Shown here: positions 9,827 to 38,640 of the stretch, piece by piece
Layout of the letters: every line of letters begins with the position of its first letter
Numbering within the stretch: position 1 is the first letter of the stretch
NCBI GenBank assembly: GCA_964526265.1
Contig: CAZGIL010000002.1
Span: 1-48,611, forward strand
From: Candidatus Woesearchaeota archaeon
GTDB lineage: Archaea > Nanobdellota > Nanobdellia > Pacearchaeales > GW2011-AR1
Length of the DNA: 48,611 bases
Direction: 5' to 3'
Notes under the pieces: generated by a model
The model's database searches: none
Told to the model about the DNA's origin: nothing
Seen by the model: only the letters and a program-made list of their open reading frames with translations
Translations under genes and position numbers: made by a program

Positions 9827-9899
9827 AGCCCCATAGTACAGTGGTCAAGTATACGGCCCTCTGAAGGCTGTGACCCAGGTTCGAATCCTGGTGGGGCTA
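9827..9899 (+). tRNA. tRNA-Gln (anticodon CUG)
   Basis: Hand-folded cloverleaf: acceptor AGCCCCA/TGGGGCT, D arm GTAC/GTAT, anticodon arm CGGCC-CTCTGAA-GGCTG, T arm CCAGG-TTCGAAT-CCTGG, discriminator A. No encoded CCA. Confidence 0.8.
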
Positions 9900-9907: not shown

Positions 9908-10330
9908 CTATTGAGGATTATCTCTTTTTTTTATATAGAATGCGTGTGAGGCTCCTCTTATTTCTACGTCATCTCCTATTTTTAAACCAGCTTCTTGCAT
10001 TAGTTCTCTAGGAAGGGATATTACTCTTCCGTCTGTGGCATTTTGAACATTTTCCATATGAATCTTTCTGTAAGTTAATCTTTCATTCATTCTGGCTGCT
10101 GCTGCATAATTTCCTGGACTTCCTTTTAGAGGAGGATTTGGATGATTGGCTCTAGCTGCCATTTCCAAATTACTAAACCCCCAAACTGTTGTTATTTCTC
10201 CGCTTTGAAACGTAATTAGGTAATAGATGTTCGCACTAAAATTTGGGCTTAATCGGACTCTTCTTTCATGTGCTTCTATTTTCATATAATTGTCCCATAA
10301 ACAAGCTTTAAAAATGTGATTAAATATCAA
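9908..10330 (-). CDS. SpoVT/AbrB-like domain protein (start uncertain)
   Basis: C-terminal GRVISLPRELMQEAGLKIGDDVEI resembles the AbrB/SpoVT swapped-hairpin motif. The N-terminal part has no recognisable motif. An alternative start at 10285 (MKIEAHE) is likely. Confidence 0.4.
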   Translation of the reverse strand: MIFNHIFKACLWDNYMKIEAHERRVRLSPNFSANIYYLITFQSGEITTVWGFSNLEMAARANHPNPPLKGSPGNYAAAARMNERLTYRKIHMENVQNATDGRVISLPRELMQEAGLKIGDDVEIRGASHAFYIKKRDNPQ

Positions 10331-10343: not shown

Positions 10344-10580
10344 GCCCCTGTCGTATAGAGGCCAAGTACGCCACCCTCTCAAATTAGAAATTGGCATTTG
10401 GATTCAAATGCCCAGAGGAGAGGTGATCTAACTCGATGAGAGCGATGGTCTAGCATCTCAATGCAGCCACTCTTTTGAGTTGTAGTGCGGGAATTCGTAC
10501 TATTTAGGGAAAACCAAAACGCGGAGTAAATCCGCATTTAGGGAACGGTGGTAACCCGAGTTCAAATCTCGGCGGGGGCA
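10344..10580 (+). tRNA. tRNA-Glu (anticodon CUC) interrupted by a ~164-nt intron (about 10382..10545)
   Basis: Acceptor GCCCCTG/CGGGGGC, D arm GTAT-AGAGGCCAA-GTAC, 5' anticodon stem CCACC + CTCTCA at 10371..10381. The matching 3' stem GGTGG appears only at 10547..10551. T arm CCGAG-TTCAAAT-CTCGG. The intron position is assumed to be the canonical 37/38. Confidence 0.7.
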
Positions 10581-10629
10581 TAATACCTTTATGGCAGATT
10601 TCGTGGGCATCAATTTGCCCTTAAATTTA
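10570..10629 (+). repeat. att-type direct repeat copy 1 (tRNA-Glu 3' end plus ~50 nt downstream)
   Basis: 54/60 identical to 37502..37561 by hand alignment. The first 12-13 nt (cggcgggggcata) also recur at 33149 and 38628. Confidence 0.8.
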
Positions 10630-10722: not shown

Positions 10723-10881
10723 TTATTCTTCCTTATCTTCGTATTCAGCCAAAAGCTCTTTTCCTTCTTCAGAATCAAAGTCCACAAAATCTATGCTTGG
10801 CTTTTCCCTATCAACTTTTCTGAATTGCTTAAGCCTTTTATCTATAGTGTATCCCTTGAACTCCGGCAATTTGTTAACCAT
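10723..10881 (-). CDS. Small acidic protein (52 aa), translationally coupled to the upstream RHH gene
   Basis: Hand-translated MVNKLPEFKGYTIDKRLKQF...AEYEDKEE. GGAGGT RBS 5-10 nt upstream of the ATG. Below the ORF-track cutoff. Confidence 0.35.
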   Translation of the reverse strand: MVNKLPEFKGYTIDKRLKQFRKVDREKPSIDFVDFDSEEGKELLAEYEDKEE

Positions 10882-10883: not shown

Positions 10884-11078
10884 TTACCTCCCGTAAGATT
10901 TATTTAAGATTGTCTGAATCTTCTCAAGAATATTCTCAATTCTTATTAGAGGAGGATTTTCTATCAATTTCTGCCTACAGAATTCACAAAGAGAAAGATT
11001 ATACTCTTTTGCTTCTTTTTCTAATCTTTCTTTAAGTTCTGTTTCCAGCCATAGATGTATTTGTGCATTCTTTTTCAT
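10884..11078 (-). CDS. Ribbon-helix-helix (CopG/MobC-like) DNA-binding protein
   Basis: 64 aa. IHLWLETELKERLEKEAKEYNLSLCEFCRQKL fits a beta-strand/helix/helix RHH pattern. Confidence 0.5.
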   Translation of the reverse strand: MKKNAQIHLWLETELKERLEKEAKEYNLSLCEFCRQKLIENPPLIRIENILEKIQTILNKSYGR

Positions 11079-11161: not shown

Positions 11162-12307
11162 TTAGTTTCCAATTTGAGAAATCCTCCTGTTGGCAATTTC
11201 AATATATTTTTTATTTAATTCAAAACCTAAGAAATTCATGCCTAATTTTTTAGCAACAATAGCAGTAGTGCCAGAACCCATGAAAGGATCAAGAACTAAT
11301 CCTGGCTCAAATCCTGCATTACAATTGCAGCTTAGAACAACTCTTTCTTTTACTTTTGAGCTATAGCCCCTTTCATTGTAATTTTTTATTTCTTTATCAG
11401 AAGCCTTTCTATCTATGCTTTTTAATCTGCCTTCTTTAACATCCCTGACTCTTAGATTAAATGAATAAGGGCTGTTTCTTTTTTCTATGATTAATCTAGG
11501 AACACCACATCTCTTACAAATTTTATCAGGACATCCAGCCTTAATACAGAATTCTGGCAATGTAGCTGGAAACATGGCATAATGCTCTTCTTTACTTGGT
11601 TCAAGAGGGAACATTATACAATTACCAGGATTTTTCCCCTTGGAGTTTGGAATATATAGTCTCTTTTCACCATAATTTCCCTTACCATCTCTTTGACGAA
11701 ATAGCTTATTTCTAGGCAATTCTTTGTAAGGTATTCTTATGTTATCCAAATTAAAATAATATTTTTTATTTTTTACGAATAGAAATAAAGATTCTGAATT
11801 TGTATTTAATCTATCTGAAACAGCAGAAGGCATTACAGCACCTAGAGAAAATTTAGTTTTAAAATTACATATCTGCTTAACCCATGTTATATCATTTCTT
11901 AAAATTAATCCCAAATCATCCTGACATTGCATAGCGATTCTAAAAGGAATTAATAGTCTTTGTTTCTCTTGAAGCCAGTTAGATTTTAAGTTTCCTTCAA
12001 TTTTTTGGTATTTCTTAATTAACTTGCCTTTAGTTCCACAAGTAATGTTTGTATAATAAGAATCTCCCAGATTAAGCCAAATAGTTCCTGTTGGCTTTAA
12101 TACTCGCTTGCATTCTCTCATAATATCAACTATTTTTCTTATATAACAAGCAGGATCTAACTCCAAGCCTATCTGACCTTCAATTCCATAATCCCTTAAT
12201 GCCCAGTAAGGCGGAGAAGTTACAATACAATCAACACTATTCTCTTTTAGTTCTCTTAATCCAGAAAGAATATCAACATGATAAATTTTGTTTTCTTGGA
12301 TTTGCAT
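11162..12307 (-). CDS. Beta-class DNA methyltransferase (N4-cytosine or N6-adenine), orphan
   Basis: Motif IV DCIVTSPPYW is N-terminal and motif I VLDPFMGSGTTA is C-terminal (beta permutation). There is a Cys-rich insertion (CPDKICKRCG ... CNCN). No adjacent restriction endonuclease was recognised. Confidence 0.85.
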   Translation of the reverse strand: MQIQENKIYHVDILSGLRELKENSVDCIVTSPPYWALRDYGIEGQIGLELDPACYIRKIVDIMRECKRVLKPTGTIWLNLGDSYYTNITCGTKGKLIKKYQKIEGNLKSNWLQEKQRLLIPFRIAMQCQDDLGLILRNDITWVKQICNFKTKFSLGAVMPSAVSDRLNTNSESLFLFVKNKKYYFNLDNIRIPYKELPRNKLFRQRDGKGNYGEKRLYIPNSKGKNPGNCIMFPLEPSKEEHYAMFPATLPEFCIKAGCPDKICKRCGVPRLIIEKRNSPYSFNLRVRDVKEGRLKSIDRKASDKEIKNYNERGYSSKVKERVVLSCNCNAGFEPGLVLDPFMGSGTTAIVAKKLGMNFLGFELNKKYIEIANRRISQIGN

Positions 12308-12431
12308 AAAATCTCTATCTGATTATTTCTTAAATATCCCCTCGTGAAATTTTTCATAGAAATTTACATAGAAACTTTTCTATGAATTTTTTCACGTAGT
12401 TCTATTTAAAAAACAGAGCAATGAAAAATTT

Positions 12432-12602
12432 ATGAAAAACGAAATTGACATTTGTATTTTTTGTAAAAAAGAGCTTGAGGAATTTGAGGAAGATGTTTGT
12501 GATTCCTGTAAGCAATTCATGAGGATAAAATATCCTACAACTAAATGTCTGGAGGAACAAATAAGATGCCACAAAAGAAACGCAAAAAAGCGAAAGCAAT
12601 AG
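12432..12602 (+). CDS. Small zinc-ribbon-like protein (56 aa, CxxC...CxxC)
   Basis: Hand-translated MKNEIDICIFCKKELEEFEEDVCDSCKQF... Overlaps the start of the pilin-like gene. Below the ORF-track cutoff. Confidence 0.3.
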   Translation: MKNEIDICIFCKKELEEFEEDVCDSCKQFMRIKYPTTKCLEEQIRCHKRNAKKRKQ

Positions 12603-12901
12603 TGTTGCCAATTGTATTGTGTTTGGCTATGTTTGCACTGCAACTTGTTTTAGTAAGTGCAGCAGCAAATCCAACATACGACCAAATTTTGCAGCCAATA
12701 CAAGCTGTTTACGACTTAGTGAAGTATGCTGTGACAATTATAGCAGGATTAGTCTTGCTATTTGCAGGCATTACATACGTTATGTCTGGCTCTGACCCTG
12801 GAAAGAGAGAGCAAGCCAAGAATATGATAATGTATGTGATAATTGGCTTAGCAGTAATTTGGGCAGCACCGCTTATCGTAAAACTGGTAATGGGGAGCTA
12901 G
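12566..12901 (+). CDS. VirB2/TrbC/CedA1-like pilin candidate
   Basis: Lys-rich N-terminus, signal-like hydrophobic segment ending in AAA, then two hydrophobic helices separated by a short charged loop (SGSDPGKREQAKN). GGAGG lies 8 nt upstream of the ATG at 12566 (the ORF track starts at 12545). First gene of the VirB4 cluster. Confidence 0.5.
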   Translation: MPQKKRKKAKAIVLPIVLCLAMFALQLVLVSAAANPTYDQILQPIQAVYDLVKYAVTIIAGLVLLFAGITYVMSGSDPGKREQAKNMIMYVIIGLAVIWAAPLIVKLVMGS

Positions 12902-12903
12902 AA

Positions 12904-14271
12904 ATGAAAAGCCAAATTGTTTTGTTTATAGCTTTAGCCCTGCTCCTACCCTCAGCTATTGCATTTAATTGCAATAGTTTGAGTGGTGGAGATTTAGAAG
13001 TCTGCAGTTCTATTCAAAATACTAATCTTAGTCAGACAGACAAGGATTTGTTAATTTCAGATATTTTTAATCCAAATAAAACAACTCCTGATTTTGATTT
13101 TGTTTATCAGTGGAATACTAATTTGAATATTGCAAACAGCCCAGATGGGAGAATTTATTCTTCAGGAACTATAAATAGTGCATGGATTAAAATTATTAGC
13201 TTAATGCCTTCAATAATTGAAAATAATACCCTTTATTCTTCAAATTCAGGAAAATTGTTGACTGCTTATAGTTATAATTATCAACTTCCATCTGGAACTA
13301 TCTCGGGAGATTGTAGAACTTATTATTCTTTATCAAGCAAAACCGAGCAATTGAATGTTTATGTGAATAACAATCTTATAGGGCATAACAAATTAACTGC
13401 GTTTAATAATTTAAATCAGGAAAATCTTAATCTTAAGTCTGAATTAGTAATTAATTTACAGTATAAGGTAGATCATTACATAAACAGAAGACATTGCAGC
13501 GAATATGATCGTGACGGAAACTGCATAAGGCATTATTACAGATGCGAATTCTCTTATACAGAGTATAGAACAGACAGCTTAACAATTAATGATCAATTAA
13601 ATGCAAAACTCTATCAAAATCAGCAAAAAAGTTTATTTAAGATAACTAATAAATATTATGGCGTAACTCAGGGAATTTTGCAAGCTGACAATTACACAAA
13701 TCTGATTTTAAGTTTTAACAATTCAGAATATAAGTATAGTAAGTATATTTACTCATTAGATTACTCCTTACCCTACTATGTTTTAACAATAAAAGCAGAG
13801 CCAGTAGAAATTATCAATTTTAATAACATTCATGTTGACAAGCAAAATTCCAGCTTTTACTTTACTGTTGCAGATAATTCAAAGTGCAAGATACAACTAA
13901 ATGACTTTTTTAGTTCAAAACTATTCCCTTGCGATTTAAGTTTTAATGAGATTAATTTTTCCATAAGAACAGACAAGACTAATTATTTTGATAATGATAC
14001 CATTAAAGTTTATATCTCTCCAGATAACCTTCTTGTAAGCTTAACTTATGCAAATAAAACTATAACTGCGAAGAATTATACAGAGTTTAAATCAATTCTT
14101 TATGAAAATAAAATCTCTGCAAAAGTAGGAGATAAAGAACAAGTAACTTTAATTAATATAAACAAAAGAGAAGATTTTGATACTCTCTATCAATTAGTCA
14201 GCTTATTTTTTGTAGGATATATCTGCTATAAGGCATCTAAGCAATATATTTCTAAATGGAGAGTAGCATGA
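12904..14271 (+). CDS. Secreted Asn/Tyr/Ser-rich protein with C-terminal TM anchor, unknown function
   Basis: Signal peptide MKSQIVLFIALALLLPSAIA, many NxS/T sequons, C-terminal hydrophobic anchor LVSLFFVGYICY. ATGA stop/start overlap with the next gene. Confidence 0.5.
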   Translation: MKSQIVLFIALALLLPSAIAFNCNSLSGGDLEVCSSIQNTNLSQTDKDLLISDIFNPNKTTPDFDFVYQWNTNLNIANSPDGRIYSSGTINSAWIKIISLMPSIIENNTLYSSNSGKLLTAYSYNYQLPSGTISGDCRTYYSLSSKTEQLNVYVNNNLIGHNKLTAFNNLNQENLNLKSELVINLQYKVDHYINRRHCSEYDRDGNCIRHYYRCEFSYTEYRTDSLTINDQLNAKLYQNQQKSLFKITNKYYGVTQGILQADNYTNLILSFNNSEYKYSKYIYSLDYSLPYYVLTIKAEPVEIINFNNIHVDKQNSSFYFTVADNSKCKIQLNDFFSSKLFPCDLSFNEINFSIRTDKTNYFDNDTIKVYISPDNLLVSLTYANKTITAKNYTEFKSILYENKISAKVGDKEQVTLININKREDFDTLYQLVSLFFVGYICYKASKQYISKWRVA

Positions 14272-15152
14272 AAAAGTATTTTTCTTTCTTGTTTTTATTA
14301 TTAATAATTCCTTTGGTTAGTGCAGATTGTGGAATAACTAACTTAGCTGGATGTATTGCAGAATCATTTTTTAATTTTCTGTTAAGCATCTTAAATGCCC
14401 CTCTTCAGCCATTACTAGACGCAGTTCGTTATTTATTAACTCAACCAGTAAACATAGACCTTTTTTCTAGTATCTGGGGAATTATTGTTTACATTCTTTC
14501 TCTATTTTATGGAATTCTCTTGATGTATGTGGGTTTTAAATTTATAATTTCGGGGCATTCAGTAGAAATGAGAGAAAAAGCAAAATCAGATTTGGCGAAT
14601 ATATTAATTATGATAGTTTTAGTCCAGGCTAGTTTTTATCTTTATTCATTAATTATTCAGATTGTTGCTTCTGTTTCAACAGTTACCTTAAACATGGTTG
14701 AGCCAAACTTTTTTCTTTTAACTGCTGATAATATCACAAATATAGGTTTAGAACTAATCTTGATTATTCCTTATCTTGTAAGCATTTTAGTTACTTTAAT
14801 TTTACTAACATTAAGGTATGTTGTTGTAAGTTCAGGAGTTATTTTGTTTGCAATCGGGATATTTATGTATTTTATTGGTCCTTTAAAGCATTATGGAAAA
14901 TTAATTATCAATTTTCTTATAGTAACAATATCAATAACATTCTTTTACTCAATAATTTTCCTAGCAAGCTCAATGTTATTAGATGTAGGAATTTTTGCAA
15001 ATTTTAAGATTCTTATAATGATAGGAGCATTTACACTAATAGATGTCTTGACAATTGTTATCACTTTATTTGTTATAATTAAATCTGCCCTGAAAGTTGC
15101 TGAGCCAGTTATGAAAGTTGTTTCAGTAGTTGGGGCAATCGCAGGAGCTTAA
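14268..15152 (+). CDS. Polytopic membrane protein, VirB6/TrbL/CedA-like by position and topology
   Basis: Signal peptide plus at least 6 hydrophobic helices. Lies immediately upstream of the VirB4-like ATPase. No sequence motif is diagnostic. Confidence 0.45.
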   Translation: MKKYFSFLFLLLIIPLVSADCGITNLAGCIAESFFNFLLSILNAPLQPLLDAVRYLLTQPVNIDLFSSIWGIIVYILSLFYGILLMYVGFKFIISGHSVEMREKAKSDLANILIMIVLVQASFYLYSLIIQIVASVSTVTLNMVEPNFFLLTADNITNIGLELILIIPYLVSILVTLILLTLRYVVVSSGVILFAIGIFMYFIGPLKHYGKLIINFLIVTISITFFYSIIFLASSMLLDVGIFANFKILIMIGAFTLIDVLTIVITLFVIIKSALKVAEPVMKVVSVVGAIAGA

Positions 15153-15153
15153 A

Positions 15154-18100
15154 ATGTATGAAATTCCACAACAATTAGAATATAAAGAAAAAATAGTATT
15201 TGGCTTAACATTTGGGCAATTAATGTACGCAATGATATTTCTGCCAATAGCAGTAATTTTCTTCAGATTAAATGTTTCTATGCCAATTAAAGTATTTTTA
15301 ATATTTATTCCAGTATCTTTGGCAGCAGGTTTTATGTTTTTTAATCTTCTTGATGTAATTAAAAACTGGAAAGCCTGGTTTAAGTACAGACTCTTAAACA
15401 CAAAAGAAAAAATTCAGATGTTCTTTAAAGTGAATAAGGAGAATATTAAAGATAATTTTATAATTATAAAAGATAAAAAACTGGCAGTTCTAAGAGTTGA
15501 GCCTTTAAACTTCGATATCAAGACAAATGAGGAAAAAGAAGCGATACTCTTCTCTTTCCAGAGATTTCTTAATTCTCTTGATTTCCCTATCCAGATTTTA
15601 ATGACTACTGAAACATTAAACTTAGATAGTTATCTTGATAGTTTGAAAGGCAGAATCAGTAATCTTAAAGATAAAAGGGCAGACGAGATTTTTGATAGCT
15701 ATCAAAATCATATGAAAAATGTTGTCAAGGAAAATAGTGCATTAAACAGAAACTTCTATCTTGTTATAAAAGAAACCTCTGACATAAACATTCAGATTAA
15801 AGTTTGTGAAGAAAGATTATGGGGGCTTAATCTAAGGACGCATAGATTAGATAATACTGAAATTACTAAACTTTTACTTAAAACTCTCTATTCCAAACAC
15901 ACTAAAGACAATATTCTACCCGATGTAATTAAGAACGATATTAATTATGTAAAACTTGTCAAGCAAGTCGAATCCAAAGAAGATTATAAGAAAAGAATAG
16001 AAGAGGAAACAAAGAAGAAAAAGAAAGATAAAAAATATAAGTTTGATAAAAGTCCTTTAGATTTAGATTATAAATTCCAGAGAATAATTTATGCTTATGG
16101 ATATCCAAGGGCTGTAGAAGCTGGTTTTCTTGATAAGATTATTAGTTCTTCAGGAAATTTTGATTTATCGATTCATATAGAACCTTGCCTTATTGAAACT
16201 TCTTTAATTAATTTAAATAAAGAATTACAAAAACAAAGAGCTGACTTATACGCAGCCAAGATAAAAGGGCAGTTAAATCCTAGCCTAGAAATAAAGTATA
16301 AAGATACAAGAAGTGTACTAGAAAGATTACAAAAAGGAGACGAAAGACTGTTCAATGTTTCATTATATATTAATTGCCAGGCAGATAGTTTAGCAGAACT
16401 TAATTTATTAACAAAAAAGATAGAATCTGAATTAAATTCCTTATTGATTATTCCTAAACAACCGACATTCAGAATGTTACAGGGGCTTAAATCCTGCCTG
16501 CCTTTAGTTGAAAATACACTTGGAATTAGAAGAAATGTTACAACTCCTGCTTTGTCTGCTTTCTTTCCTTTTACATCTTCATTCTTTAAATCAGATGATA
16601 CTGGAATATGGTTTGGTTTGAATAAGAATAATATTCCTATTGTAAGGGATATTTACAAGCTTTCAAATGCAAATGGAATGTGTCTGGCTACTTCTGGAGC
16701 TGGAAAAAGTTATATGGCTAAATTGTTTATCTCAAGATATCTTTTAAATGGAACAAGGGTTATTGTAATTGACCCACAAGCAGAATATAGAAATCTAGTA
16801 GAAAAGTTTAACGGGCAGAGAATTGACTTGTCCAGGACCTCTGGAACAATAATTAACCCTTTGGATTTAATGGGTCATGAGTATCCTGAGAAAAGGTTAG
16901 CTTTAATGGATTTAATGCCTATTATGCTTGGGGAGCTATCGGAACCTCAGAAATCGTTTATTGATAAGGCTATAACTATGGCTTATGAAACTAAGGGAAT
17001 TTATATGTTTAAGAAAAATGGGCAGTATGATGTTGAAAGCTGGGACGAAGAGCCACCAATTCTGAAAGATGTTCTTGATGCTCTAAATAAAATGGAAAAA
17101 AGAGTAACAACAATGGAGAAAATAACAATAAGAAGCCTGATTAACCGGCTTGATTTATATGTAACAGGAGTATTCTCTTTTCTTAACAGACATACTAATA
17201 TTGATTTTAATAATAGATTTGTTTGTTTTGATATAGGAAATATGCCTAAGCAAGTTAAACCCGCTATAATGTTCCTTGTTCTTGACTATGTTTATATGAA
17301 AATGAAAAGCAGTCTTGAAAGAAAGCTGTTAGTGATAGACGAAGCATGGAGTTTATTATCAAGAACAGAAGAAGCATCTTATATATTTGAAATAGTTAAA
17401 ACTTGCAGAAAATTTAATTTAGGATTATTCTTAATAAACCAAGAAGTAGAAGATATGCTTAATTCCAAGGCAGGGAGAAGTGTTTTAGCTAACTCGTCCT
17501 ATACCTTATTGTTAAGACAGAAGCCAGCTGTTATAAAAGACGTTCAGGCAACATTCCATTTAAGTGATTCTGAGAAGAATTTTTTATTAACTGCTTCAGT
17601 AGGAGAAGGCATTTTGCTTATGGAAAACGACCACTCTAAAATAAGAATTGTAGCTTCAGAAGAAGAACACAAACAAATAACAACTAATGCAGATGAAAGA
17701 CTTAAGAATAATGAAGAAATACCAAAAGAACTTGTTAAAATAAAACCAGTAATTAAAAAATCAAAGAATAAGCCAATAAAAATAACTGTTGATGAAAACT
17801 TGGGATTTTTTAAAGTAAAAGATATACCCACAAAACAGGATTACAATCATTTAGTTCTAAAAGGTTACAAAGAATATTCATTTAAAGGCATCACATCAAA
17901 TAAAAAAGAAAAATATCTTTTAAGACCACGAAATAAAGAAAGCCCTCAGCACTTTTTCCTGATTTTTGATATTGCAAACTATCTTAAAAAATTCACAGAT
18001 AAAATCTCTTTATTTCAATCTGTCAAGCCAGATATTGTTTTCGAGATAAATAATAAAAAATATGCTATTGAAATAGAAACAGGCAAAATGTTTACGCATA

Positions 18101-18267
18101 ATAAGAAAGGTTTGCTGGCAAAAGTCAAATTATTAAACAAGGACTACGGCAAAAACTGGCTTTTTGCTTTAACAAATAAAAAATTCACATCAAAATATAA
18201 TAAATTGGGTCAAACTTGCGATAATAGAACAATAATTAATAAGATTAATAGAATTGTTAGAAATTAA
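15154..18267 (+). CDS. VirB4/TraC/CedB-like conjugation ATPase with N-terminal 2-TM (VirB3/PrgI-like) segment and C-terminal PD-(D/E)xK-like extension
   Basis: N-terminal IVFGLTFGQLMY plus two TM helices. Walker A ATSGAGKSY and Walker B LLVIDEAWSLL. Size is ~1037 aa. The C-terminal ~190 aa beyond the ATPase core contains KPDIVFE...YAIEIETGK. Confidence 0.8.
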   Translation: MYEIPQQLEYKEKIVFGLTFGQLMYAMIFLPIAVIFFRLNVSMPIKVFLIFIPVSLAAGFMFFNLLDVIKNWKAWFKYRLLNTKEKIQMFFKVNKENIKDNFIIIKDKKLAVLRVEPLNFDIKTNEEKEAILFSFQRFLNSLDFPIQILMTTETLNLDSYLDSLKGRISNLKDKRADEIFDSYQNHMKNVVKENSALNRNFYLVIKETSDINIQIKVCEERLWGLNLRTHRLDNTEITKLLLKTLYSKHTKDNILPDVIKNDINYVKLVKQVESKEDYKKRIEEETKKKKKDKKYKFDKSPLDLDYKFQRIIYAYGYPRAVEAGFLDKIISSSGNFDLSIHIEPCLIETSLINLNKELQKQRADLYAAKIKGQLNPSLEIKYKDTRSVLERLQKGDERLFNVSLYINCQADSLAELNLLTKKIESELNSLLIIPKQPTFRMLQGLKSCLPLVENTLGIRRNVTTPALSAFFPFTSSFFKSDDTGIWFGLNKNNIPIVRDIYKLSNANGMCLATSGAGKSYMAKLFISRYLLNGTRVIVIDPQAEYRNLVEKFNGQRIDLSRTSGTIINPLDLMGHEYPEKRLALMDLMPIMLGELSEPQKSFIDKAITMAYETKGIYMFKKNGQYDVESWDEEPPILKDVLDALNKMEKRVTTMEKITIRSLINRLDLYVTGVFSFLNRHTNIDFNNRFVCFDIGNMPKQVKPAIMFLVLDYVYMKMKSSLERKLLVIDEAWSLLSRTEEASYIFEIVKTCRKFNLGLFLINQEVEDMLNSKAGRSVLANSSYTLLLRQKPAVIKDVQATFHLSDSEKNFLLTASVGEGILLMENDHSKIRIVASEEEHKQITTNADERLKNNEEIPKELVKIKPVIKKSKNKPIKITVDENLGFFKVKDIPTKQDYNHLVLKGYKEYSFKGITSNKKEKYLLRPRNKESPQHFFLIFDIANYLKKFTDKISLFQSVKPDIVFEINNKKYAIEIETGKMFTHNKKGLLAKVKLLNKDYGKNWLFALTNKKFTSKYNKLGQTCDNRTIINKINRIVRN

Positions 18268-20107: not shown

Positions 20108-20734
20108 ATGAAACCAACGATAATTAACGATGTAAGCGGGATTCCGACCTATGGCATAAGAGCGTATGCCTTATTCTTTTCAAGGCATGGGAATAGGGAG
20201 GAATTTGCTCAGAATGAATTGGATTGGATAGTTGGACAAAGCATGAAGAAAAAAATATTCTCTTTATTATTGAGATCTGGCTGGATAATAAAAAAATCAA
20301 AGAATACTTATATTTGCATTAGTCCTGCAGATGTTTTTAGAAAGATATTGGAATTCAAAGTTCCCCAGATAGTTCAGAAATCTGAAAGAGAATATGCTTT
20401 TACAGGATTGTCTGCAGTAGAAATATGGAGCGATTATGCTTATGTTCAAAGGGGCATAGAAAAGTCCCCTTATTTTATTAAAGTATTTAAGAAAGATTTG
20501 CAATACTGGAAAGACTTTTTTAACAAATATAAAATCCCTAATTATGTAAATTCCGGAACAACAATAGGGGAGTTTGTTATTTTAATTCCTACTGACAAGA
20601 TTAATTCAACAATCAAAAATGATTTAAAGGTAGAAACATTAAAAGAAACAACAAAAATAGCAAAAGAGAGCAGCTTTTATTTATATGCTTATAATTACAT
20701 AAAGGAGAAATATAATGGTAGAATTACAGCTTAG
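20108..20734 (+). CDS. Winged-helix protein, AbiEi-like antitoxin candidate
   Basis: The segment KKIFSLLLRSGWIIKKSKNTYICISP looks like a wHTH recognition helix plus wing. Overlaps the downstream nucleotidyltransferase gene by 20 nt. Confidence 0.4.
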   Translation: MKPTIINDVSGIPTYGIRAYALFFSRHGNREEFAQNELDWIVGQSMKKKIFSLLLRSGWIIKKSKNTYICISPADVFRKILEFKVPQIVQKSEREYAFTGLSAVEIWSDYAYVQRGIEKSPYFIKVFKKDLQYWKDFFNKYKIPNYVNSGTTIGEFVILIPTDKINSTIKNDLKVETLKETTKIAKESSFYLYAYNYIKEKYNGRITA

Positions 20735-21398
20735 AGAAAAAGAGATATTTGAAACCTTAAAAAAGATAAAGAAATTTGATTTTGTAGTTATCGGAGGATA
20801 TGCTGTAAACGCTTATACTCTCCCAAGATTTTCTGCTGATTGTGATATTGTTGTAAAAGATGAAGCAGAGTTGGGAAAAATAAAAAAGGAATTGGAAAAA
20901 TCAGGATATAAAGAAGTTAAAGCAAATGAAGAACTGCTATATCATGGGAATTTCAAAAGGTTTGAGAAGGAAATTCAATTAAATTTTAGTGTAAGTATAG
21001 ACATACTTATCCAAGAAGTTTTGGACAGGCAGACTAATTCTAGCTTTCTCGCTGATTGGATTTTCGAAAATTCCAAGTTAAGAAACTTAAGAGGAAAGAC
21101 CATTAATGAAGAATTAAAATTAAGAATAATAAATCCCGAAGCTTTATTTGTAATGAAAATGTTAAGTTGCAGGCAAACAGATATAAGAGACATCTTTTTA
21201 CTGGCAACTGAAATAAAAAATAATGAGTGGGTAAAAAAAGAAGTTGAAAGCAGGTATTCGTTTAAGGACAGGATTAAAAAAATAAAAAAAGAAATTAACT
21301 CTAATCAGTTTAAAGATGGTTTGCAGGGAGTTTTTGGTATTATTGATAAAAAGATATTTGAAAGAAATATAAAGTTAATTTCTAATTTGGATAAATAA
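20715..21398 (+). CDS. Nucleotidyltransferase-fold protein, AbiEii/DUF1814-like toxin candidate
   Basis: FDFVVIGGYAVNAYTLPRFSADCDIVV matches the GG..(n)..R.S.D.D minimal NTase pattern of AbiEii-type proteins. Confidence 0.5.
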   Translation: MVELQLREKEIFETLKKIKKFDFVVIGGYAVNAYTLPRFSADCDIVVKDEAELGKIKKELEKSGYKEVKANEELLYHGNFKRFEKEIQLNFSVSIDILIQEVLDRQTNSSFLADWIFENSKLRNLRGKTINEELKLRIINPEALFVMKMLSCRQTDIRDIFLLATEIKNNEWVKKEVESRYSFKDRIKKIKKEINSNQFKDGLQGVFGIIDKKIFERNIKLISNLDK

Positions 21399-21411: not shown

Positions 21412-21687
21412 CTAAATGGCTTCTCTCTCCTTATACAACCACATCATCACAGGCAAAGGAGTATCTTTCTGTTTCTTCAGTTCTTTTATTGCTTTCTCCA
21501 ACTCTTCAATATTTCTATAATAAGTTAATTGATATGAGAACTTAGATCTCTTTTCTTTTAGCTGAGGAAATTCTTTTACTAAATCTGCCTTTATTCTGAT
21601 TATACTCCAAGTTCCAGATTTTTCGTCATAATAAATACTTCCAAGAGTATCAATTGCATTTCGAGGTATTAGTGTTCTTCTTTCCAT
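21412..21687 (-). CDS. Hypothetical protein, downstream partner of an RHH gene
   Basis: 91-aa ORF, 8 nt downstream of the RHH ORF on the same strand. Confidence 0.4.
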   Translation of the reverse strand: MERRTLIPRNAIDTLGSIYYDEKSGTWSIIRIKADLVKEFPQLKEKRSKFSYQLTYYRNIEELEKAIKELKKQKDTPLPVMMWLYKEREAI

Positions 21688-22541: not shown

Positions 22542-23453
22542 TTAAGTTAAACTAAAATTATTCTTTCCTGTTTTCTTCAGAATTTTGTCTGGATTTACCT
22601 CAATTCCTTTCCCATCAATAATTTTCATTTCTACAATTTCCTTTTTGAAGCCAACACCTCTCATTTTTAAAATTTCAATTGCAGTGGTCCTCCTTCCTGA
22701 ATCATAAATAACATTATACAAAACAATGATTCCATCAGATAAAAATGAAACAGCTTCTCCCTGTTCTTGGAATGTAGTTCCTATATGTGAGGGAGAAGAA
22801 ACTTCTCTGATTAAAAAATTAGTTATTTTATTTTTTTCCAAGTACCTAAATAATTGTTCCATGTAAATCCTAAATCTGCTTTCTTCTCCTGAAAATGCAG
22901 ATGCAATGCTTGTCAGAGAATCAATAACTACAAAATCTGGCTTAAAATCATCTGGAAAAAGCATGGGCTCTACCTCAATTAAAAGTTCTTTTTTAGCAGC
23001 ACTTAATAATGCTTCAATGCTCCTTGAAACATCTATTGCATCAAATCTTGTTATCCTTAACAAGCCTTTTTTAACAAACTCTTTTGATTTCCATCCAAAA
23101 CCACCCATATGTTCAATTAATTGCTCTTCTGACTCTTCAAAACTCATATAAAGGCATTTTTTTCCTTTCTTGCATAATTCATTGACAGTAGCGAGGCAAA
23201 AAACAGTTTTTCCGCTTCCAGGACCTCCTTCAACTAAAACAGATACTCCATTTGGAATTCCCCTATCTTTTGCAAATAAAGAGTCAAAACCTTTAATGCC
23301 TGTTCTTAGAAATCTATCGTCGGTTTTAATCTTTTTTTTAAATTTTTCTCTTTTCAGTTTTTTTGCAGGGATTTCTTTTTTATTTTTCTTCCTGCCTAAA
23401 ATTTTTCCTGCTTTTCCTCGCCCTCTTTTTTTTGCCATCTTATTAAATAACAT
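22542..23453 (-). CDS. KaiC/RadA-like RecA-superfamily ATPase with Lys-rich N-terminal tail
   Basis: GIKGFDSLF...VLVEGGPGSGKT (Walker A) and FVVIDSL (Walker B). Single KaiC-like domain. The first ~50 aa are highly basic. Confidence 0.75.
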   Translation of the reverse strand: MLFNKMAKKRGRGKAGKILGRKKNKKEIPAKKLKREKFKKKIKTDDRFLRTGIKGFDSLFAKDRGIPNGVSVLVEGGPGSGKTVFCLATVNELCKKGKKCLYMSFEESEEQLIEHMGGFGWKSKEFVKKGLLRITRFDAIDVSRSIEALLSAAKKELLIEVEPMLFPDDFKPDFVVIDSLTSIASAFSGEESRFRIYMEQLFRYLEKNKITNFLIREVSSPSHIGTTFQEQGEAVSFLSDGIIVLYNVIYDSGRRTTAIEILKMRGVGFKKEIVEMKIIDGKGIEVNPDKILKKTGKNNFSLT

Positions 23454-24998: not shown

Positions 24999-25076
24999 TC
25001 TGGGTTTTGGAATCTGGAAATCCAATCGTCGCAAAAAAATTTGGGAGAAAAGAGGAAAACAAAAAGAGGATGAAAA

Positions 25077-25934
25077 ATGAATGAAGAAAAGAATGAAACA
25101 CATATAGCTATATTCAATGGAAAAAAGATAAGGAGAAAACTTGTAAATGATAAATGGTTTTTTTCTGTTGTAGATGTAGTTGGAGTTTTGACTGAAAGTG
25201 AAGACCCTAGAAAATATTGGAATAAGTTAAGTCAAAGACTGCGAGAAGAGGGAAGTGAGGTGGTGACATTTTGTCACCAACTGAAATTAAAGGCCGGAGA
25301 TGGTAAGGAATATGAAACAGGCTGTGCGGATACAGAAGGCATTTTTAGAATAATCCAGTCTATTCCTTCTAAAAAAGCTGAGCCATTTAAGAGATGGCTG
25401 GCTAGAGTGGGCTACGAAAGGATACAAGAAATAGAAAATCCCGAGCTTGCTCAGGAAAGAATGAAAACACTTTATGAATTAAAAGGATATTCTAAGGAAT
25501 GGATAGACAAAAGATTAAGAGGTATTGCAGTGAGGCAGGATTTAACTGATGAGTGGAAAAACAGGGGGGTGGAAGAAGAGAAAGATTTTGCTATTTTAAC
25601 AGCAGAAATATCTAAAGCAACTTTTGGAATGTCTCCTGCTGAATATAAAAAGTTTAAAGGGCTGAAAAATGAAAATTTAAGAGACCACATGACTGATTTA
25701 GAATTAATATTTAATATGCTTGGAGAAGCTTCTACCTCAGAGATTGAAAAGGCTCAAAATCCAAATACTTTTGATGAACATTTAGAGGTTTCAAATAAGG
25801 GTGGAAATGTTGCAAAGATTGCAAGAATAAAACTAGAACAGGAAACAGGAGAGCCTGTTGCAAGCGAAGAAAACTATTTGGATGAACCTGAAAAACTGAA
25901 GAAAAAGAAAAAAATTTTAGAGGTTAATGCATAA
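25077..25934 (+). CDS. Bro-N domain / DinD-like (DNA-damage-inducible protein D-like) protein
   Basis: N-terminal IFNGKKIRRKLVNDKWFFSVVDVVGVLTES (Bro-N-like), then KRWLARVGYERIQEIENPELA...WIDKRLRGIAVRQDLTDEW, typical of DinD-family proteins. Confidence 0.65.
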   Translation: MNEEKNETHIAIFNGKKIRRKLVNDKWFFSVVDVVGVLTESEDPRKYWNKLSQRLREEGSEVVTFCHQLKLKAGDGKEYETGCADTEGIFRIIQSIPSKKAEPFKRWLARVGYERIQEIENPELAQERMKTLYELKGYSKEWIDKRLRGIAVRQDLTDEWKNRGVEEEKDFAILTAEISKATFGMSPAEYKKFKGLKNENLRDHMTDLELIFNMLGEASTSEIEKAQNPNTFDEHLEVSNKGGNVAKIARIKLEQETGEPVASEENYLDEPEKLKKKKKILEVNA

Positions 25935-26370: not shown

Positions 26371-26395
26371 GAATGGGTTGGATTGTGATTAACAG

Positions 26396-31901: not shown

Positions 31902-33062
31902 TTATGCGTGAACCATTCCAAATTTAGTATTAGTAATATTGAGTCTTCCAAGAACAATTTTTAATTCTTCTTCAACCCGATTTAGTCTTTCCTGTATGAT
32001 TTCTTTCTCTTTCTCGGATTTTGCAAGCTTCTGTTCAATTTCAGTTTTAGTAATATCAACTAGTAAATCATCTTCACTTATTGTGTCTTTCATGCCTAAT
32101 AACTCGGAATAATAATGAATCTTATCTGAATTTTTCCAACCAAATCTATATTTCAATGCAGATTCAGATTTATATCTAGGCAACCAATAACAACAAGCAT
32201 TATGCCTAAAATCATACATAGTTAGTTCAGAATACTTTTGTCCCGCGAGGCTTTCAATATCTCCAAAAAGTTTTCTTCCTAACCTTTTCAAATATCTGTT
32301 AACAACAACAGGAGATATTGGAAATAAGTAATCGTTTGAAGTCAAATTATTATCCTTGATATAATCTTTTAATAAATTAGTACAAAGAAGCAATTTTATT
32401 CTTCTGCCAAAAGTCTTGCTTATTTCATCTCTTATATTAAGTTCCTTACAATCTTGGGATAAATCTGCTACTCTGATATTAACCAACTCTGTAGGGGCTC
32501 TTATTCCAGTATCAAATAAGAACATCATCAATACTTTATAACCGTATTTTGCCTTTTCACATAGTTCCCTTATCTGTTCTTCTGTTAAATATACCCAGTC
32601 TGGCTTATTCCCAGAAGTATCCAAGTCAATTGTAATGTCTGGGATATCAATTCCTTTCTTTCTATTTACTTTTTGATACCAGTGCCAGAATGCCTTAAAA
32701 TTTTTAGCATAATCCTGGACTGATTTGTAGATTTTATTTTCTCTTGTCTTTATTTCTCCATTTCTCATAGCTGAAAATAAATCTAATAACTGTTCTTCTT
32801 TTAATTTGCTTGTATCTAATAATTGATATCTTCTTTCAACTTGAGACATTAAGAAAAATAATCTTGATTTTAGATTATTCAACCTCATACAACTTCTACT
32901 CCCTTTTACACTTGTACTGGATATATTGATTCCTTTCTCCATGTCAAATAAGTAGTTCAGAAGCAATCCTGAATTGATCTGGCTTATTCCAGGAATGCCT
33001 GACCTAAATTTCTCTTTCCAAGCTTGCCATCTTGCGTCATGTTTATATGGATCTATTTTCAT
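31902..33062 (-). CDS. int: Tyrosine recombinase / integrase
   Basis: FDTGIRAPTEL (box I Arg), YDFRHNACCYW (His-x-x-Arg region), GWKNSDKIHYY (catalytic Tyr region). Intact, with the att repeat 87 nt upstream of the start. Confidence 0.8.
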   Translation of the reverse strand: MKIDPYKHDARWQAWKEKFRSGIPGISQINSGLLLNYLFDMEKGINISSTSVKGSRSCMRLNNLKSRLFFLMSQVERRYQLLDTSKLKEEQLLDLFSAMRNGEIKTRENKIYKSVQDYAKNFKAFWHWYQKVNRKKGIDIPDITIDLDTSGNKPDWVYLTEEQIRELCEKAKYGYKVLMMFLFDTGIRAPTELVNIRVADLSQDCKELNIRDEISKTFGRRIKLLLCTNLLKDYIKDNNLTSNDYLFPISPVVVNRYLKRLGRKLFGDIESLAGQKYSELTMYDFRHNACCYWLPRYKSESALKYRFGWKNSDKIHYYSELLGMKDTISEDDLLVDITKTEIEQKLAKSEKEKEIIQERLNRVEEELKIVLGRLNITNTKFGMVHA

Positions 33063-33148
33063 GTTTTGTCGAGGGCAATTAACTTTTTATATGTCTGGTA
33101 TAAAGTTTATACCGATGCCCCTAAAATCTGCCAAGAAGGTTTCGATAT

Positions 33149-33161
33149 CGGCGGGGGCATA
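33149..33161 (+). repeat. att-type direct repeat copy 2 (cggcgggggcata)
   Basis: Identical to the tRNA-Glu 3' end at 10570..10582. The flanking gtttcgatat loosely resembles the tRNA T-arm. Confidence 0.6.
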
Positions 33162-38444: not shown

Positions 38445-38627
38445 TTTTCTTAGTGTATATTTAGTATAAATATCATATATATGTTGAGTATATAAGCTTT
38501 TCTATACTCTAATATCTATTTCTTGTAGTAGAGCTCTTTAAATATAGCAGATCCTATCGAATTCTAATAAATTAAATACAATTAAAAAAAATTAGTCCCC
38601 TTGATTATGCCAAAAGGGCTATTGTTT

Positions 38628-38640
38628 CGGCGGGGGCATA
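38628..38640 (+). repeat. att-type direct repeat copy 4 (cggcgggggcata), presumed outer island boundary
   Basis: Exact 13-nt match to the tRNA-Glu 3' end. Housekeeping-type genes resume to the right. Confidence 0.55.

What the first reader, a model, noticed from the sequence alone, without database searches (positions are those of the whole stretch)
12432..18267. Minimal VirB2/VirB6/VirB4-type DNA-transfer (conjugation or Ced-like) cluster without relaxase or coupling protein
Five tightly packed co-directional genes with ATGA or 1-4 nt junctions make up the cluster: a Zn-ribbon micro-ORF, a pilin-like protein with a signal peptide and two helices, a 456-aa secreted anchored protein, a polytopic membrane protein, and a 1037-aa ATPase combining a VirB3-like 2-TM segment with a VirB4 core. 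This is the minimal core shared by bacterial T4SS conjugation machines and archaeal Ced/Ted DNA-import systems. I could not recognise a relaxase, a VirD4-type coupling protein or a VirB11 anywhere on the element. The way DNA is processed is therefore unexplained. In an organism with DPANN-like features (possibly dependent on a host cell), such a machine could also mediate DNA exchange with a host.
Basis: partly seen in the sequence, partly recalled or inferred. Interest (0 to 1): 0.75.

Follow-up and report, generated by a model that had tools for sequence, protein, structure and literature searches.

The report
Minimal conjugation machine with fused nuclease
A 22.6-kb mobile element inserted in a tRNA gene of a tiny DPANN archaeon carries a stripped-down DNA-transfer machine whose motor ATPase ends in a predicted DNA-cutting domain, a candidate answer to how archaeal conjugation works without the usual DNA-nicking enzyme.

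Summary
Five tightly packed co-directional genes lie at 12432-18267: a Zn-ribbon micro-ORF, a VirB2-type pilin, a secreted anchored protein, a VirB6/CedA-like polytopic protein and a 1037-aa VirB3-VirB4 fusion.

No relaxase, coupling protein or VirB11 was found on the element, and none is conserved in 72 related loci.

New findings:
- The cluster sits on an integrated element (10583-33147) in an intron-containing tRNA-Glu. A 14-nt att core occurs three times, the element ends carry 27-nt inverted arms, and a tyrosine integrase lies at one end.
- The same module order (integrase, methylase, NikA-like RHH, Zn-ribbon, pilin, secreted protein, VirB6-like, VirB4) recurs across Woese-/Pacearchaeota MAGs.
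D960, E973 and E975 are invariant in 150 divergent representatives.
- This domain is fused in 117 of 120 homologs. Otherwise it is a separate two-TM protein, either just downstream of VirB4 or just downstream of the same integrase family in three T4SS-less loci.

Best reading: an ICE-like element whose VirB4-tethered nuclease substitutes for the relaxase/coupling functions. Transfer and nuclease activity are inferred, not shown.

The parts
10344..10580 (+). tRNA-Glu(CTC) with a 164-nt intron; integration target (attL side)
   Evidence: ARAGORN with introns allowed. Missed by default ARAGORN and by Rfam.
10569..10582 (+). att core copy 1 (TCGGCGGGGGCATA), overlapping the tRNA 3' end
   Evidence: Exact 14-mer found three times in the window; alignment of the three sites.
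10585..10611 (+). Left terminal inverted-repeat arm of the element (putative integrase core-type site)
   Evidence: 22 of 27 nt identical to the reverse complement of 33114-33140; 0 of 2000 shuffles reach the score. A similar motif follows the tRNA next to integrases in related loci.
10723..10881 (-). 52-aa ORF downstream of the RHH gene, function unknown
   Evidence: ORF. Homologs in L018, L080 and L081.
10884..11078 (-). NikA-like ribbon-helix-helix protein (candidate DNA-binding accessory factor or regulator)
   Evidence: Pfam NikA-like 28.1 bits against cutoff 27; weak PHROG Arc-like repressor hit. Conserved next to the methylase in 20 loci.
11162..12307 (-). N6/N4 DNA methyltransferase, conserved companion of the module
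   Evidence: Pfam N6_N4_Mtase 3.4e-46. Found in 23 loci, divergent from the T4SS operon.
12432..12602 (+). Zn-ribbon micro-protein (56 aa) with a basic tail, first gene of the operon
   Evidence: Two CxxC pairs; weak DZR_2 hit. Conserved in 42 loci, and part of ~350-aa ORFs in L062 and L079.
12545..12901 (+). VirB2/TrbC-type T4SS pilin (signal peptide plus two TM helices)
   Evidence: Pfam T4SS_pilin 1.4e-15 and TrbC 5.3e-10; alignment of 29 homologs.
12901..14271 (+). Secreted, C-terminally anchored T4SS accessory protein (possible adhesin or stalk component)
   Evidence: No family hit. A conserved N-terminal ~70 aa (signal peptide, 2 Cys) and a C-terminal anchor flank an optional ~340-aa insert. 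Fused to the polytopic protein in some loci.
14268..15152 (+). VirB6/CedA-like polytopic membrane protein with an N-terminal pilin-homologous hairpin
   Evidence: hhalign against the pilin 94.5%, E=8e-8. 24 of 37 homologs hit T4SS_pilin. Weak TrbL_3 hit in the L080 homolog. AF2 pLDDT 80; top Foldseek hits are TrwI/VirB6, E 0.09-0.2.
15154..15408 (+). VirB3/PrgI-like two-TM segment fused to VirB4
   Evidence: PrgI E=8e-5 over residues 4-85; TM segments 23-41 and 45-63. Encoded as a separate ~100-aa ORF in L019, L020, L043, L057 and L067.
15445..17703 (+). VirB4 ATPase core (TraC-like N-domain plus P-loop; Walker A at residue 515, Walker B at 727)
   Evidence: NCBIfam and Pfam hits; plasmid tblastn; motifs.
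17776..18264 (+). C-terminal PD-(D/E)xK nuclease-fold domain (residues 875-1037; E929, H933, D960, E973, E975, K990)
   Evidence: AF2 pLDDT 93.4. Foldseek hits in PDB and BFVD are almost all nucleases. Putative catalytic residues are invariant in 150 representatives. Fused in 117 of 120 homologs. Split forms lie next to VirB4 or next to the integrase.
21412..21687 (-). 91-aa protein of unknown function, recurrent in related elements
   Evidence: Homologs in 20 loci; no family hit.
31902..33062 (-). Tyrosine integrase of the element
   Evidence: Pfam Phage_integrase 9.7e-11. Close homologs (E about 1e-150 to 1e-200) lie next to tRNA genes in related loci.
33114..33140 (-). Right terminal inverted-repeat arm
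33148..33161 (+). att core copy 2 (junction between the T4SS element and a second, integrase-less island)
38627..38640 (+). att core copy 3 (distal end of the tandem island)

Best explanation
The cluster is the transfer module of an integrative, probably self-transmissible (ICE-like) element of a DPANN archaeon (Nanoarchaeota, Woese-/Pacearchaeota type). The element (10583-33147) is inserted by a tyrosine integrase into the 3' end of tRNA-Glu(CTC).

The module is a minimal monoderm-type (MPF_FATA-related) T4SS. It comprises a VirB2-like pilin, a VirB6/CedA-like channel protein, an accessory surface protein and a VirB3-VirB4 motor.

Instead of a relaxase and a VirD4 coupling protein, the VirB4 motor carries a C-terminal PD-(D/E)xK nuclease domain. 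I propose that after excision this membrane-tethered nuclease cuts or nicks the element DNA at the channel entrance and hands it to the VirB4/VirB6 translocon. The NikA-like RHH and the Zn-ribbon protein may help with site recognition or regulation.

Shown: the gene content, the homologies, the att structure, the predicted nuclease fold with invariant acidic residues, the fusion/fission pattern and the distribution.

Inferred: excision, cell-to-cell transfer, nuclease activity and its role in DNA processing.
For: - T4SS homologies.
- Element boundaries: a 14-nt core occurs three times, and the element-side arms are inverted repeats (22/27, 0 of 2000 shuffles). The integrase lies 85 nt from the core.
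- In related loci the same integrase family sits 70-180 nt downstream of tRNA-Asp, -Glu, -Cys, -Gly or -Thr, followed by the same arm motif.
- Of 25 species with the same tRNA-Glu 3' half, only 2 show an arm-like motif downstream, one of them with an integrase in view. This is a presence/absence polymorphism.
- The module order is conserved in many Nanoarchaeota MAGs, with variable cargo such as type I R-M, the DGR here, and a putative TA pair. Some genomes carry two copies.
- Nuclease domain: pLDDT 93.4, and nuclease-only top hits in two structure libraries. D960, E973, E975 and G977 are 150/150, H933 149/149 and K990 146/150 across representatives clustered at 50% identity.
- Rosetta-stone pattern: where VirB4 lacks the domain, a two-TM protein carrying it is encoded immediately downstream (L061, L080 with a 4-nt overlap, L088).
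- In three loci with no T4SS gene within the fetched flanks, the two-TM form directly follows the same integrase family (L082-L084). This mirrors the integrase-plus-relaxase core of bacterial mobilizable elements.
- No relaxase or T4CP family is found on the element or conserved in the family.
Against: - No excised circle or empty site was recovered.
- Foldseek E-values for the nuclease fold are modest (best 1.7e-3 in PDB, 4e-4 in BFVD), TM-scores are about 0.4, and there is no sequence-level match to any solved nuclease.
- The motif is D...ExE rather than the canonical D...ExK.
- The VirB6 assignment rests on weak structural hits.
- PD-(D/E)xK enzymes normally hydrolyse DNA and do not form the covalent 5' adduct that relaxases use to pilot and recircularise DNA, so the mechanism would have to differ.
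- No DNA translocase of the VirD4/FtsK type is present, and VirB4 has not been shown to pump DNA.
- The domain also occurs away from both VirB4 and integrases (L089).
Confidence: 0.55

Rival explanations
1. Ced/Ted-like DNA importer. The pilin, VirB6-like and VirB4 trio pulls DNA into the cell from a partner, possibly the host of this symbiont. The membrane-tethered nuclease degrades one strand or cuts incoming DNA during uptake, for recombination or as a nucleotide source. The element merely carries the system.
For: The component set is the same as in Ced/Ted, and neither has a relaxase or T4CP (PMC9905601). The pilin/VirB6 N-terminal homology parallels CedA1/CedA. One BFVD structural neighbour is named 'competence protein'. 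DPANN organisms depend on hosts (general knowledge).
Against: Ced and Ted are chromosomal and not linked to integrases, whereas this module is consistently linked to an integrase, att sites and variable cargo. The nuclease domain also pairs with the integrase alone in loci without a T4SS, which fits element propagation better than uptake. The VirB4 is closest to conjugative MPF_FATA-type VirB4s.
Confidence: 0.2
2. A T4SS repurposed for host-symbiont interaction, as proposed for Patescibacteria. The pilus and channel would mediate attachment to the host cell, or exchange of molecules with it, rather than DNA transfer.
For: Patescibacterial T4SSs are MPF_FATA-derived, have VirB2-like pilins, mostly lack relaxases and are needed for epibiotic growth. 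Some of their VirB4s cluster with archaeal ones (PMC12102498; PMC12857230). The element also encodes a 1063-aa sequon-rich surface protein and a DGR-diversified protein.
Against: The system here is on a mobile element with patchy distribution and multiple copies per genome, not a conserved chromosomal locus. A conserved nuclease fused to the motor and a companion DNA methylase point to DNA as the substrate. No VirB8-, VirB1- or VirD4-like genes or pilin arrays were found.
Confidence: 0.12
3. The C-terminal domain is not a transfer nuclease. It could be an inactive DNA-binding or oligomerisation module, or it could serve another element function such as exclusion of incoming DNA, defence, or excision/resolution.
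For: There is no biochemical evidence. Structural neighbours include Holliday-junction resolvases (Hjc, RecU) and restriction enzymes. Defence cargo (type I R-M) is common on these elements. The stand-alone form sits next to the integrase, which would also fit a resolvase or recombination-directionality role.
Against: Strict invariance of the acidic triad, H933 and K990 across divergent members argues for catalysis. Physical fusion to, or translational coupling with, VirB4, and a membrane anchor in the free form, are hard to explain for a cytoplasmic resolvase or restriction enzyme.
Confidence: 0.1

Closest known systems
Ced (Sulfolobales) and Ted (Thermoproteales) DNA-import systems
   Same: The component set is a VirB2-like pilin, a VirB6-like polytopic protein and a VirB4-like ATPase only, with no relaxase and no coupling protein. 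The N-terminus of the VirB6-like protein is homologous to the pilin (PMC9905601). The pilin has a cleavable-looking signal peptide, as TedC does.
   Different: Ced and Ted are chromosomal and, for Ced, UV-induced importers. The module here is on a tRNA-integrated element with an integrase, a methylase and an RHH protein. Here VirB4 carries a VirB3-like N-terminus and a nuclease-fold C-terminus. Sequence relationship to CedB/TedB was not tested.
MPF_FATA/FA conjugation systems of monoderm bacteria (CD1110-family VirB4 of Firmicutes plasmids and ICEs; Mycoplasma/Spiroplasma ICE VirB4 Mbov_0397)
   Same: These are the best HMM and BLAST relatives of the VirB4 core. They share the PrgI/VirB3-like segment, and the Mycoplasma ICE apparatus is similarly minimal (VirB4, VirB6-like, VirB3-like) (PMC12857230).
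   Different: The bacterial systems have a VirD4/TcpA coupling protein and a relaxase, and usually no VirB2 pilin. The score here falls just below the CD1110 equivalog cutoff (320.3 against 325). None of 72,556 plasmids has a BLAST-detectable copy of the C-terminal domain.
Patescibacteria (CPR) T4SS
   Same: Both occur in ultrasmall host-dependent monoderm organisms, are MPF_FATA-related, have VirB2-like pilins and generally lack a relaxase (PMC12102498).
   Different: The CPR system is a chromosomal, near-universal locus with VirB8/VirB1/VirD4-like genes and pilin arrays. This one is archaeal, borne on a mobile element, smaller, and has a nuclease fusion.
Archaeal conjugative plasmids (Sulfolobus pNOB8 family, Thermococcus pT33-3) and thaumarchaeal ICEs
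   Same: They are archaeal, VirB4-dependent and have no recognisable relaxase (PMC9905601, PMC12857230).
   Different: Those encode VirB4 plus a VirD4-like protein and no recognisable pilin. This element has a clear VirB2-family pilin, no VirD4-like protein, and a VirB4-nuclease fusion.
Bacterial integrative mobilizable elements (integrase plus relaxase) and CIME-type tandem accretion
   Same: Three T4SS-less loci carry only the integrase plus the two-TM nuclease-fold protein and cargo. The window shows a tandem integrase-less island sharing the att core.
   Different: The putative processing enzyme has a PD-(D/E)xK fold rather than an HUH or Rep_trans relaxase. Mobilisation has not been demonstrated.

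Membership tests
Type IV secretion / conjugation system (VirB4-based) | VirB4-family ATPase with intact Walker A and B motifs | tested here: met
   NCBIfam VirB4 CD1110 family 2.6e-95 (320.3 bits, cutoff 325), Mbov_0397 2.6e-92, TraC and VirB4_CagE hits. Pfam P-loop_TraG 7e-27. GAGKS at residue 515 and VIDEAW at 727. Plasmid VirB4 matches.
Type IV secretion / conjugation system (VirB4-based) | VirB2/TrbC-type pilin | tested here: met
   T4SS_pilin 57.6 bits and TrbC 39.8 bits, both above their cutoffs.
Type IV secretion / conjugation system (VirB4-based) | VirB6/TrbL-type polytopic channel protein | tested here: inconclusive
   No Pfam hit for the window protein. Supporting points: pilin-homologous N-terminus, weak TrbL_3 in one homolog, and top Foldseek hits to TrwI/VirB6 at E 0.09-0.2 with TM about 0.3.
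Type IV secretion / conjugation system (VirB4-based) | VirB3-like small membrane component | tested here: inconclusive
   PrgI E=8e-5, 23.5 bits against cutoff 27. PF12666 is on record for many homologs. The segment is a separate ORF in several loci.
Conjugative system (MPF plus DNA processing) | Type IV coupling protein (VirD4/TraG/TcpA) | tested here: not met
   No such Pfam or NCBIfam hit on any ORF of 90 aa or more in 9.9-33.1 kb. No conserved large family beyond those named in 72 loci.
Conjugative system (MPF plus DNA processing) | Relaxase (MOB family) and oriT | tested here: not met
   No relaxase family hit. Only a NikA-like RHH accessory-type protein was found. A search for a candidate oriT inverted repeat was uninformative in AT-rich DNA.
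Integrative and conjugative element (ICE) | Site-specific integrase and flanking att repeats at a defined target | tested here: met
   Tyrosine integrase. The 14-nt core occurs at the tRNA-Glu 3' end and again 85 nt from the integrase, with inverted arms. Family-wide linkage of tRNA and integrase.
Integrative and conjugative element (ICE) | Demonstrated excision and self-transfer | not testable with these tools
   Scans for an attP junction and an empty site found nothing. There is only indirect presence/absence among species.
Ced/Ted DNA-import systems | Pilin plus VirB6-like plus VirB4-like trio without relaxase or T4CP | tested here: met
Ced/Ted DNA-import systems | Orthology to CedA/CedB or TedA/TedB, a chromosomal non-mobile locus, and an import function | not tested
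   No Ced or Ted sequences were on hand. The locus here is on an integrase-bearing element, which differs from the published Ced/Ted contexts (PMC9905601). Direction of transfer cannot be tested in silico.
PD-(D/E)xK nuclease superfamily (C-terminal domain) | Alpha-beta-beta-beta-alpha-beta core fold | tested here: met
   AF2 pLDDT 93.4 with helix 57-70, strands 77-79, 87-91 and 94-101, helix 110-124 and strand 128-132. Foldseek neighbours include Cdn1, PspGI, EndoMS/NucS, YaeQ, Hjc, Can2, TnsA and RecU, and viral restriction enzymes and endonucleases. E-values are modest.
PD-(D/E)xK nuclease superfamily (C-terminal domain) | Catalytic motif E...(P)D...(D/E)xK | tested here: inconclusive
   E929, P959-D960 and E973-x-E975 are invariant or nearly so, and K990 lies on the following helix. 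The third motif is ExE rather than ExK. By my recollection this variant is known from BamHI, but I did not check that here.
PD-(D/E)xK nuclease superfamily (C-terminal domain) | Nuclease activity | not testable with these tools
   Requires biochemistry.
Patescibacteria-type T4SS | Conserved chromosomal locus with VirB8/VirB1/VirD4-like genes and pilin paralog arrays | tested here: not met
   The module is element-borne, has a single pilin gene and lacks those components.

The most novel reading that the evidence does not exclude
A membrane-tethered PD-(D/E)xK nuclease, fused to VirB4 or carrying its own two-TM anchor, is the long-sought functional substitute for the relaxase and coupling protein in a lineage of archaeal conjugative elements. 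If so, it defines a relaxase-independent conjugation mechanism. It would also define a two-tier mobilome in DPANN archaea: T4SS-bearing ICEs, plus 'integrase + nuclease' elements that hitch-hike on their T4SS.
Probability: 0.3. Interest if true: 0.85.

Novelty: new variant of a known kind. Interest (0 to 1): 0.7.

Why it matters
How archaea process DNA for conjugation is an open question. Reviews up to late 2025 state that no relaxase has been recognised on any archaeal conjugative plasmid (PMC9905601, PMC12857230). This element family offers a specific, testable candidate: a conserved nuclease-fold domain physically coupled to the T4SS motor.

It also extends VirB2-pilin-bearing T4SSs to DPANN archaea. 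There they ride on tRNA-integrating elements that carry defence systems and a diversity-generating retroelement. That makes them likely drivers of gene flow in a large, uncultivated, host-dependent radiation.

The family parallels the relaxase-poor T4SSs of the bacterial CPR, which raises the question of whether ultrasmall symbionts in both domains converged on similar machines.

Tried and rejected
- Profile searches of PDB sequences with the nuclease domain, the polytopic protein and the pilin gave nothing, or only spurious TM matches such as RNase kappa.
- PHROGs scans of ten element proteins gave nothing useful.
- tblastn of the C-terminal domain against 72,556 plasmids found no match.
- Two metagenome scans, one for the right flank and one for a predicted attP junction, found nothing. 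The collection evidently lacks this part of this organism, so the result is uninformative.
- An exact-protein look-up of the flanking TrmB to find an empty site returned only occupied contexts.
- My first boundary guess, that tRNA-Gln at 9827-9899 was the target, was rejected. No part of it is repeated near the integrase. The att core belongs to the intron-containing tRNA-Glu.
- I briefly considered that the att fragment near the integrase had the wrong orientation. This resolved once the element-side arms were seen to be inverted repeats, as expected for C-O-C' core sites.
- An inverted-repeat search for an oriT or operator in the divergent promoter region was uninformative in AT-rich DNA.
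- The KaiC-like ATPase (22542-23453) was considered as a coupling-protein substitute and rejected. It is not conserved in related elements.
- The FtsK/HerA alternative for the ATPase was rejected on HMM scores.

Full report
**1. Observation**

The five ORFs are present exactly as described. They are a 56-aa CxxC...CxxC protein (12432-12602), a 118-aa protein (12545-12901), a 456-aa protein (12901-14271), a 294/298-aa polytopic protein (14268/14256-15152) and a 1037-aa ATPase (15154-18267). Junctions are a 1-nt overlap, an ATGA overlap and a 1-nt gap. The Zn-ribbon ORF overlaps the pilin ORF by 58 nt.

All five recur in the same order in related loci, so they are genes and not chance ORFs.

**2. 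Host and element**

Flanking genes include the RFC small and large subunits and PheRS-beta, so the host is an archaeon. Every close homolog of the ATPase that carries a name comes from Nanoarchaeota, Woesearchaeota or Pacearchaeota MAGs.

ARAGORN with introns allowed finds a tRNA-Glu(CTC) with a 164-nt intron at 10344-10580. The default scans had missed it.

The att structure is as follows:
- The tRNA's last bases form a 14-nt core, TCGGCGGGGGCATA.
- The core occurs three times: at 10569-10582, at 33148-33161 and at 38627-38640.
- Just inside the first two copies lie inverted arms, 10585-10611 and 33114-33140. They match at 22 of 27 positions, and 0 of 2000 shuffles reach that score. This is the layout expected of C-O-C' core sites of a tyrosine recombinase.
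- The integrase gene (31902-33062, minus strand) starts 85 nt from the second core.

In related loci the same integrase family (E about 1e-150 to 1e-200) lies 70-180 nt downstream of tRNA-Asp, -Glu, -Cys, -Gly or -Thr. A similar arm motif follows the tRNA there. Among 25 species with the identical tRNA-Glu 3' half, only two show an arm-like motif downstream, and one of those has the integrase in view.

The window therefore holds a tandem array. In order: tRNA-Glu, then a 22.6-kb T4SS element (10583-33147), then a 5.5-kb integrase-less island (33162-38626), then the host chromosome.

**3. The T4SS module**

*Pilin.* T4SS_pilin scores 57.6 bits and TrbC/VirB2 39.8 bits, both above their cutoffs.

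*ATPase.* Residues 113-825 match the CD1110-family VirB4 model (2.6e-95; 320 bits against a cutoff of 325). Residues 5-842 match the Mycoplasma ICE VirB4 model (2.6e-92). The best plasmid matches are annotated VirB4 genes of Firmicutes and Spiroplasma, at 22-30% identity over more than 80% of the core. Walker A and B motifs are intact.

*VirB3-like N-terminus.* The two-TM N-terminus resembles PrgI/VirB3 (E=8e-5, below the Pfam cutoff). It is a separate ORF in several loci.

*Polytopic protein.* It has no direct Pfam hit, but several lines point to VirB6/CedA:
- Its residues 73-121 align with pilin residues 59-107 (hhalign 94.5%, E=8e-8).
- 24 of 37 homologs hit T4SS_pilin.
- One homolog has a weak TrbL_3 hit.
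- Its AF2 model (pLDDT 80) has TrwI/VirB6 of R388 as its four best PDB neighbours. These hits are weak, with E 0.09-0.2 and TM about 0.3.

A pilin-like N-terminus is what Beltran et al. reported for CedA versus CedA1 and for VirB6 versus VirB2 (PMC9905601).

*456-aa protein.* It has a conserved signal-peptide region with two cysteines and a C-terminal anchor. These flank an optional ~340-aa insert. In some loci it is fused to the VirB6-like protein.

**4. What is missing, and what replaces it**

No relaxase, VirD4/TcpA or VirB11 family hits any ORF of 90 aa or more on the element. Clustering all ORFs of 72 related loci reveals no further conserved large family.

The families that do recur are the N6/N4 methylase, a NikA-like RHH (28.1 bits against cutoff 27), the Zn-ribbon protein, a 91-aa protein and the integrase.

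- **Conservation within the VirB4 family.** The domain is present in 117 of 120 top homologs.
- **Structure.** It has no Pfam or PDB sequence match. It folds with pLDDT 93.4 into an alpha-beta-beta-beta-alpha-beta core. The best neighbours are almost all PD-(D/E)xK nucleases. In the PDB they include Cdn1, PspGI, EndoMS/NucS, YaeQ, Hjc, Can2, TnsA and RecU. In BFVD they include restriction enzymes, a CoiA-type competence protein, Vsr, endonucleases and RecU. E-values are modest, at 1.7e-3 and 4e-4 at best.
- **Active-site residues.** A profile search of 1.84 billion representatives finds 686 proteins with the domain. In the best 150, D960, E973, E975 and G977 are invariant. H933 is 149/149, K990 is 146/150 and E929 is 139/148.
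- **Architectures.** Of those 150, 69 have an unrelated N-terminal region of more than 60 residues. In the ones I read, it begins with two TM helices.

The contexts of this free form fall into three groups:
- Immediately downstream of a VirB4 that lacks the domain: L061, L080 (4-nt overlap) and L088.
- Immediately downstream of the same integrase family, beside a tRNA, with no T4SS in view: L082-L084.
- Neither: L089.

No plasmid in PLSDB carries a BLAST-detectable copy.

**5. Mechanism**

The most economical reading is an ICE-like element. The integrase excises it. The pilin, VirB6-like protein, accessory protein and VirB3-VirB4 build a minimal monoderm-type channel and pilus. The nuclease domain, held at the membrane by VirB4 or by its own anchor, generates the transferable DNA end.

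The 'integrase + anchored nuclease' elements would then be the counterparts of bacterial mobilizable elements that borrow a resident T4SS.

The shown steps are gene content, homologies, att structure, predicted fold, residue invariance, fusion/fission and distribution. The inferred steps are excision, transfer, nuclease activity and its role.

The rivals are:
- a Ced/Ted-like importer, in which the nuclease processes incoming DNA;
- a CPR-like host-interaction machine;
- a non-transfer role for the domain, such as resolution, exclusion or defence.

The consistent linkage to integrases and cargo favours element propagation, and so does the integrase-only pairing of the domain. None of the rivals is excluded.

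**6. Comparison and novelty**

The machine works like Ced/Ted in component set, and its VirB4 is most similar to MPF_FATA conjugative VirB4s. It fails the conjugative-system membership tests for a coupling protein and a relaxase. It is not a Patescibacteria-type locus.

Full-text searches found no description of DPANN T4SS elements or of a VirB4-nuclease fusion. A December 2025 review still lists only VirB4/VirD4 plasmids, with no known relaxase, under archaeal systems (PMC12857230). The searched library is incomplete, so prior description elsewhere cannot be excluded.

I rate it a new variant of a known kind, with interest 0.7. It turns the open question of DNA processing in archaeal conjugation into a specific biochemical test.

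Noticed in passing
window 10344-10580: tRNA-Glu(CTC) interrupted by a 164-nt intron. Default ARAGORN and the Rfam gathering-threshold scan both miss it. It is the integration target of the element.
   Followed up: partly
window 24006-27708: Complete diversity-generating retroelement. The target protein has an FGE-sulfatase/C-type-lectin-like C-terminus (VR 24878-24996), followed by a Bro-N protein, bAvd, the TR (26396-26514) and the reverse transcriptase. All 14 VR/TR mismatches fall at TR adenines. One related contig (L005) ends inside the VR, which probably reflects population variability breaking the assembly.
   Followed up: yes
window 33162-38626: A second, integrase-less island is bounded by the second and third copies of the att core and has its own arm-like motifs. 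It encodes TrmB, a GTP cyclohydrolase II-deaminase fusion, a SLOG/LOG-like protein, Fic and ParE. This looks like tandem accretion (CIME-like), mobilisable in trans by the neighbouring integrase.
   Followed up: partly
L082 6782-8870; L083 6809-8873; L084 3989-6137: Elements with the same integrase family, directly followed by a two-TM protein bearing the nuclease-fold domain, beside a tRNA. No T4SS is in view. Cargo includes a DGR RT, Fic and type I R-M. They are candidate mobilizable elements.
   Followed up: partly
window 27698-31757: A 1063-aa secreted protein rich in N-glycosylation sequons, with a poly-Gly linker, a C-terminal TM and a coiled coil. A 288-aa membrane coiled-coil protein follows it. 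Neither has a family hit. They may be surface or adhesion cargo.
   Followed up: no
window 20108-21398: Overlapping gene pair. The 208-aa protein is unknown and the 227-aa protein is a DUF6036 nucleotidyltransferase. The pair resembles an AbiEi/AbiEii-type toxin-antitoxin pair.
   Followed up: no
L016 and L064 (CAZNJU010000001.1); L019 and L067 (JAGVXH010000003.1); L015; L079: Some genomes carry two T4SS modules, either about 20-40 kb apart or as inverted neighbours on one contig. This suggests repeated integration or tandem elements.
   Followed up: no
L062 6060-7130; L079 2815-3903 and 6133-7182: The Zn-ribbon micro-protein appears as part of ~350-aa ORFs that cluster with the methyltransferase family. 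This suggests a DNA-related role for the Zn-ribbon.
   Followed up: no
L001 12973-22919 and 17 other loci: Type I restriction-modification genes (HsdM in 18 loci, HsdR in 15) are the most frequent cargo next to the T4SS module.
   Followed up: no
L081 10001-13167: A VirB4 that is 82% identical to the window's lacks the nuclease domain. A metallophosphoesterase-like ORF follows it, then Cdc6 and PolD genes. No integrase was annotated within 10 kb upstream. It may be a decayed, fixed copy of the element.
   Followed up: partly
window 12347-12391: Repeated CATAGAAA / TTTCTATG motifs lie in the divergent promoter region between the methylase/RHH genes and the T4SS operon, with a TATA-like TTTAAAAAA about 25 nt upstream of the first ATG. 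This is a possible operator or transfer-origin candidate. Comparison with related loci was uninformative.
   Followed up: partly
window 9908-10330: An AbrB/MazE-like ORF sits alone between tRNA-Gln and tRNA-Glu, just outside the element.
   Followed up: no
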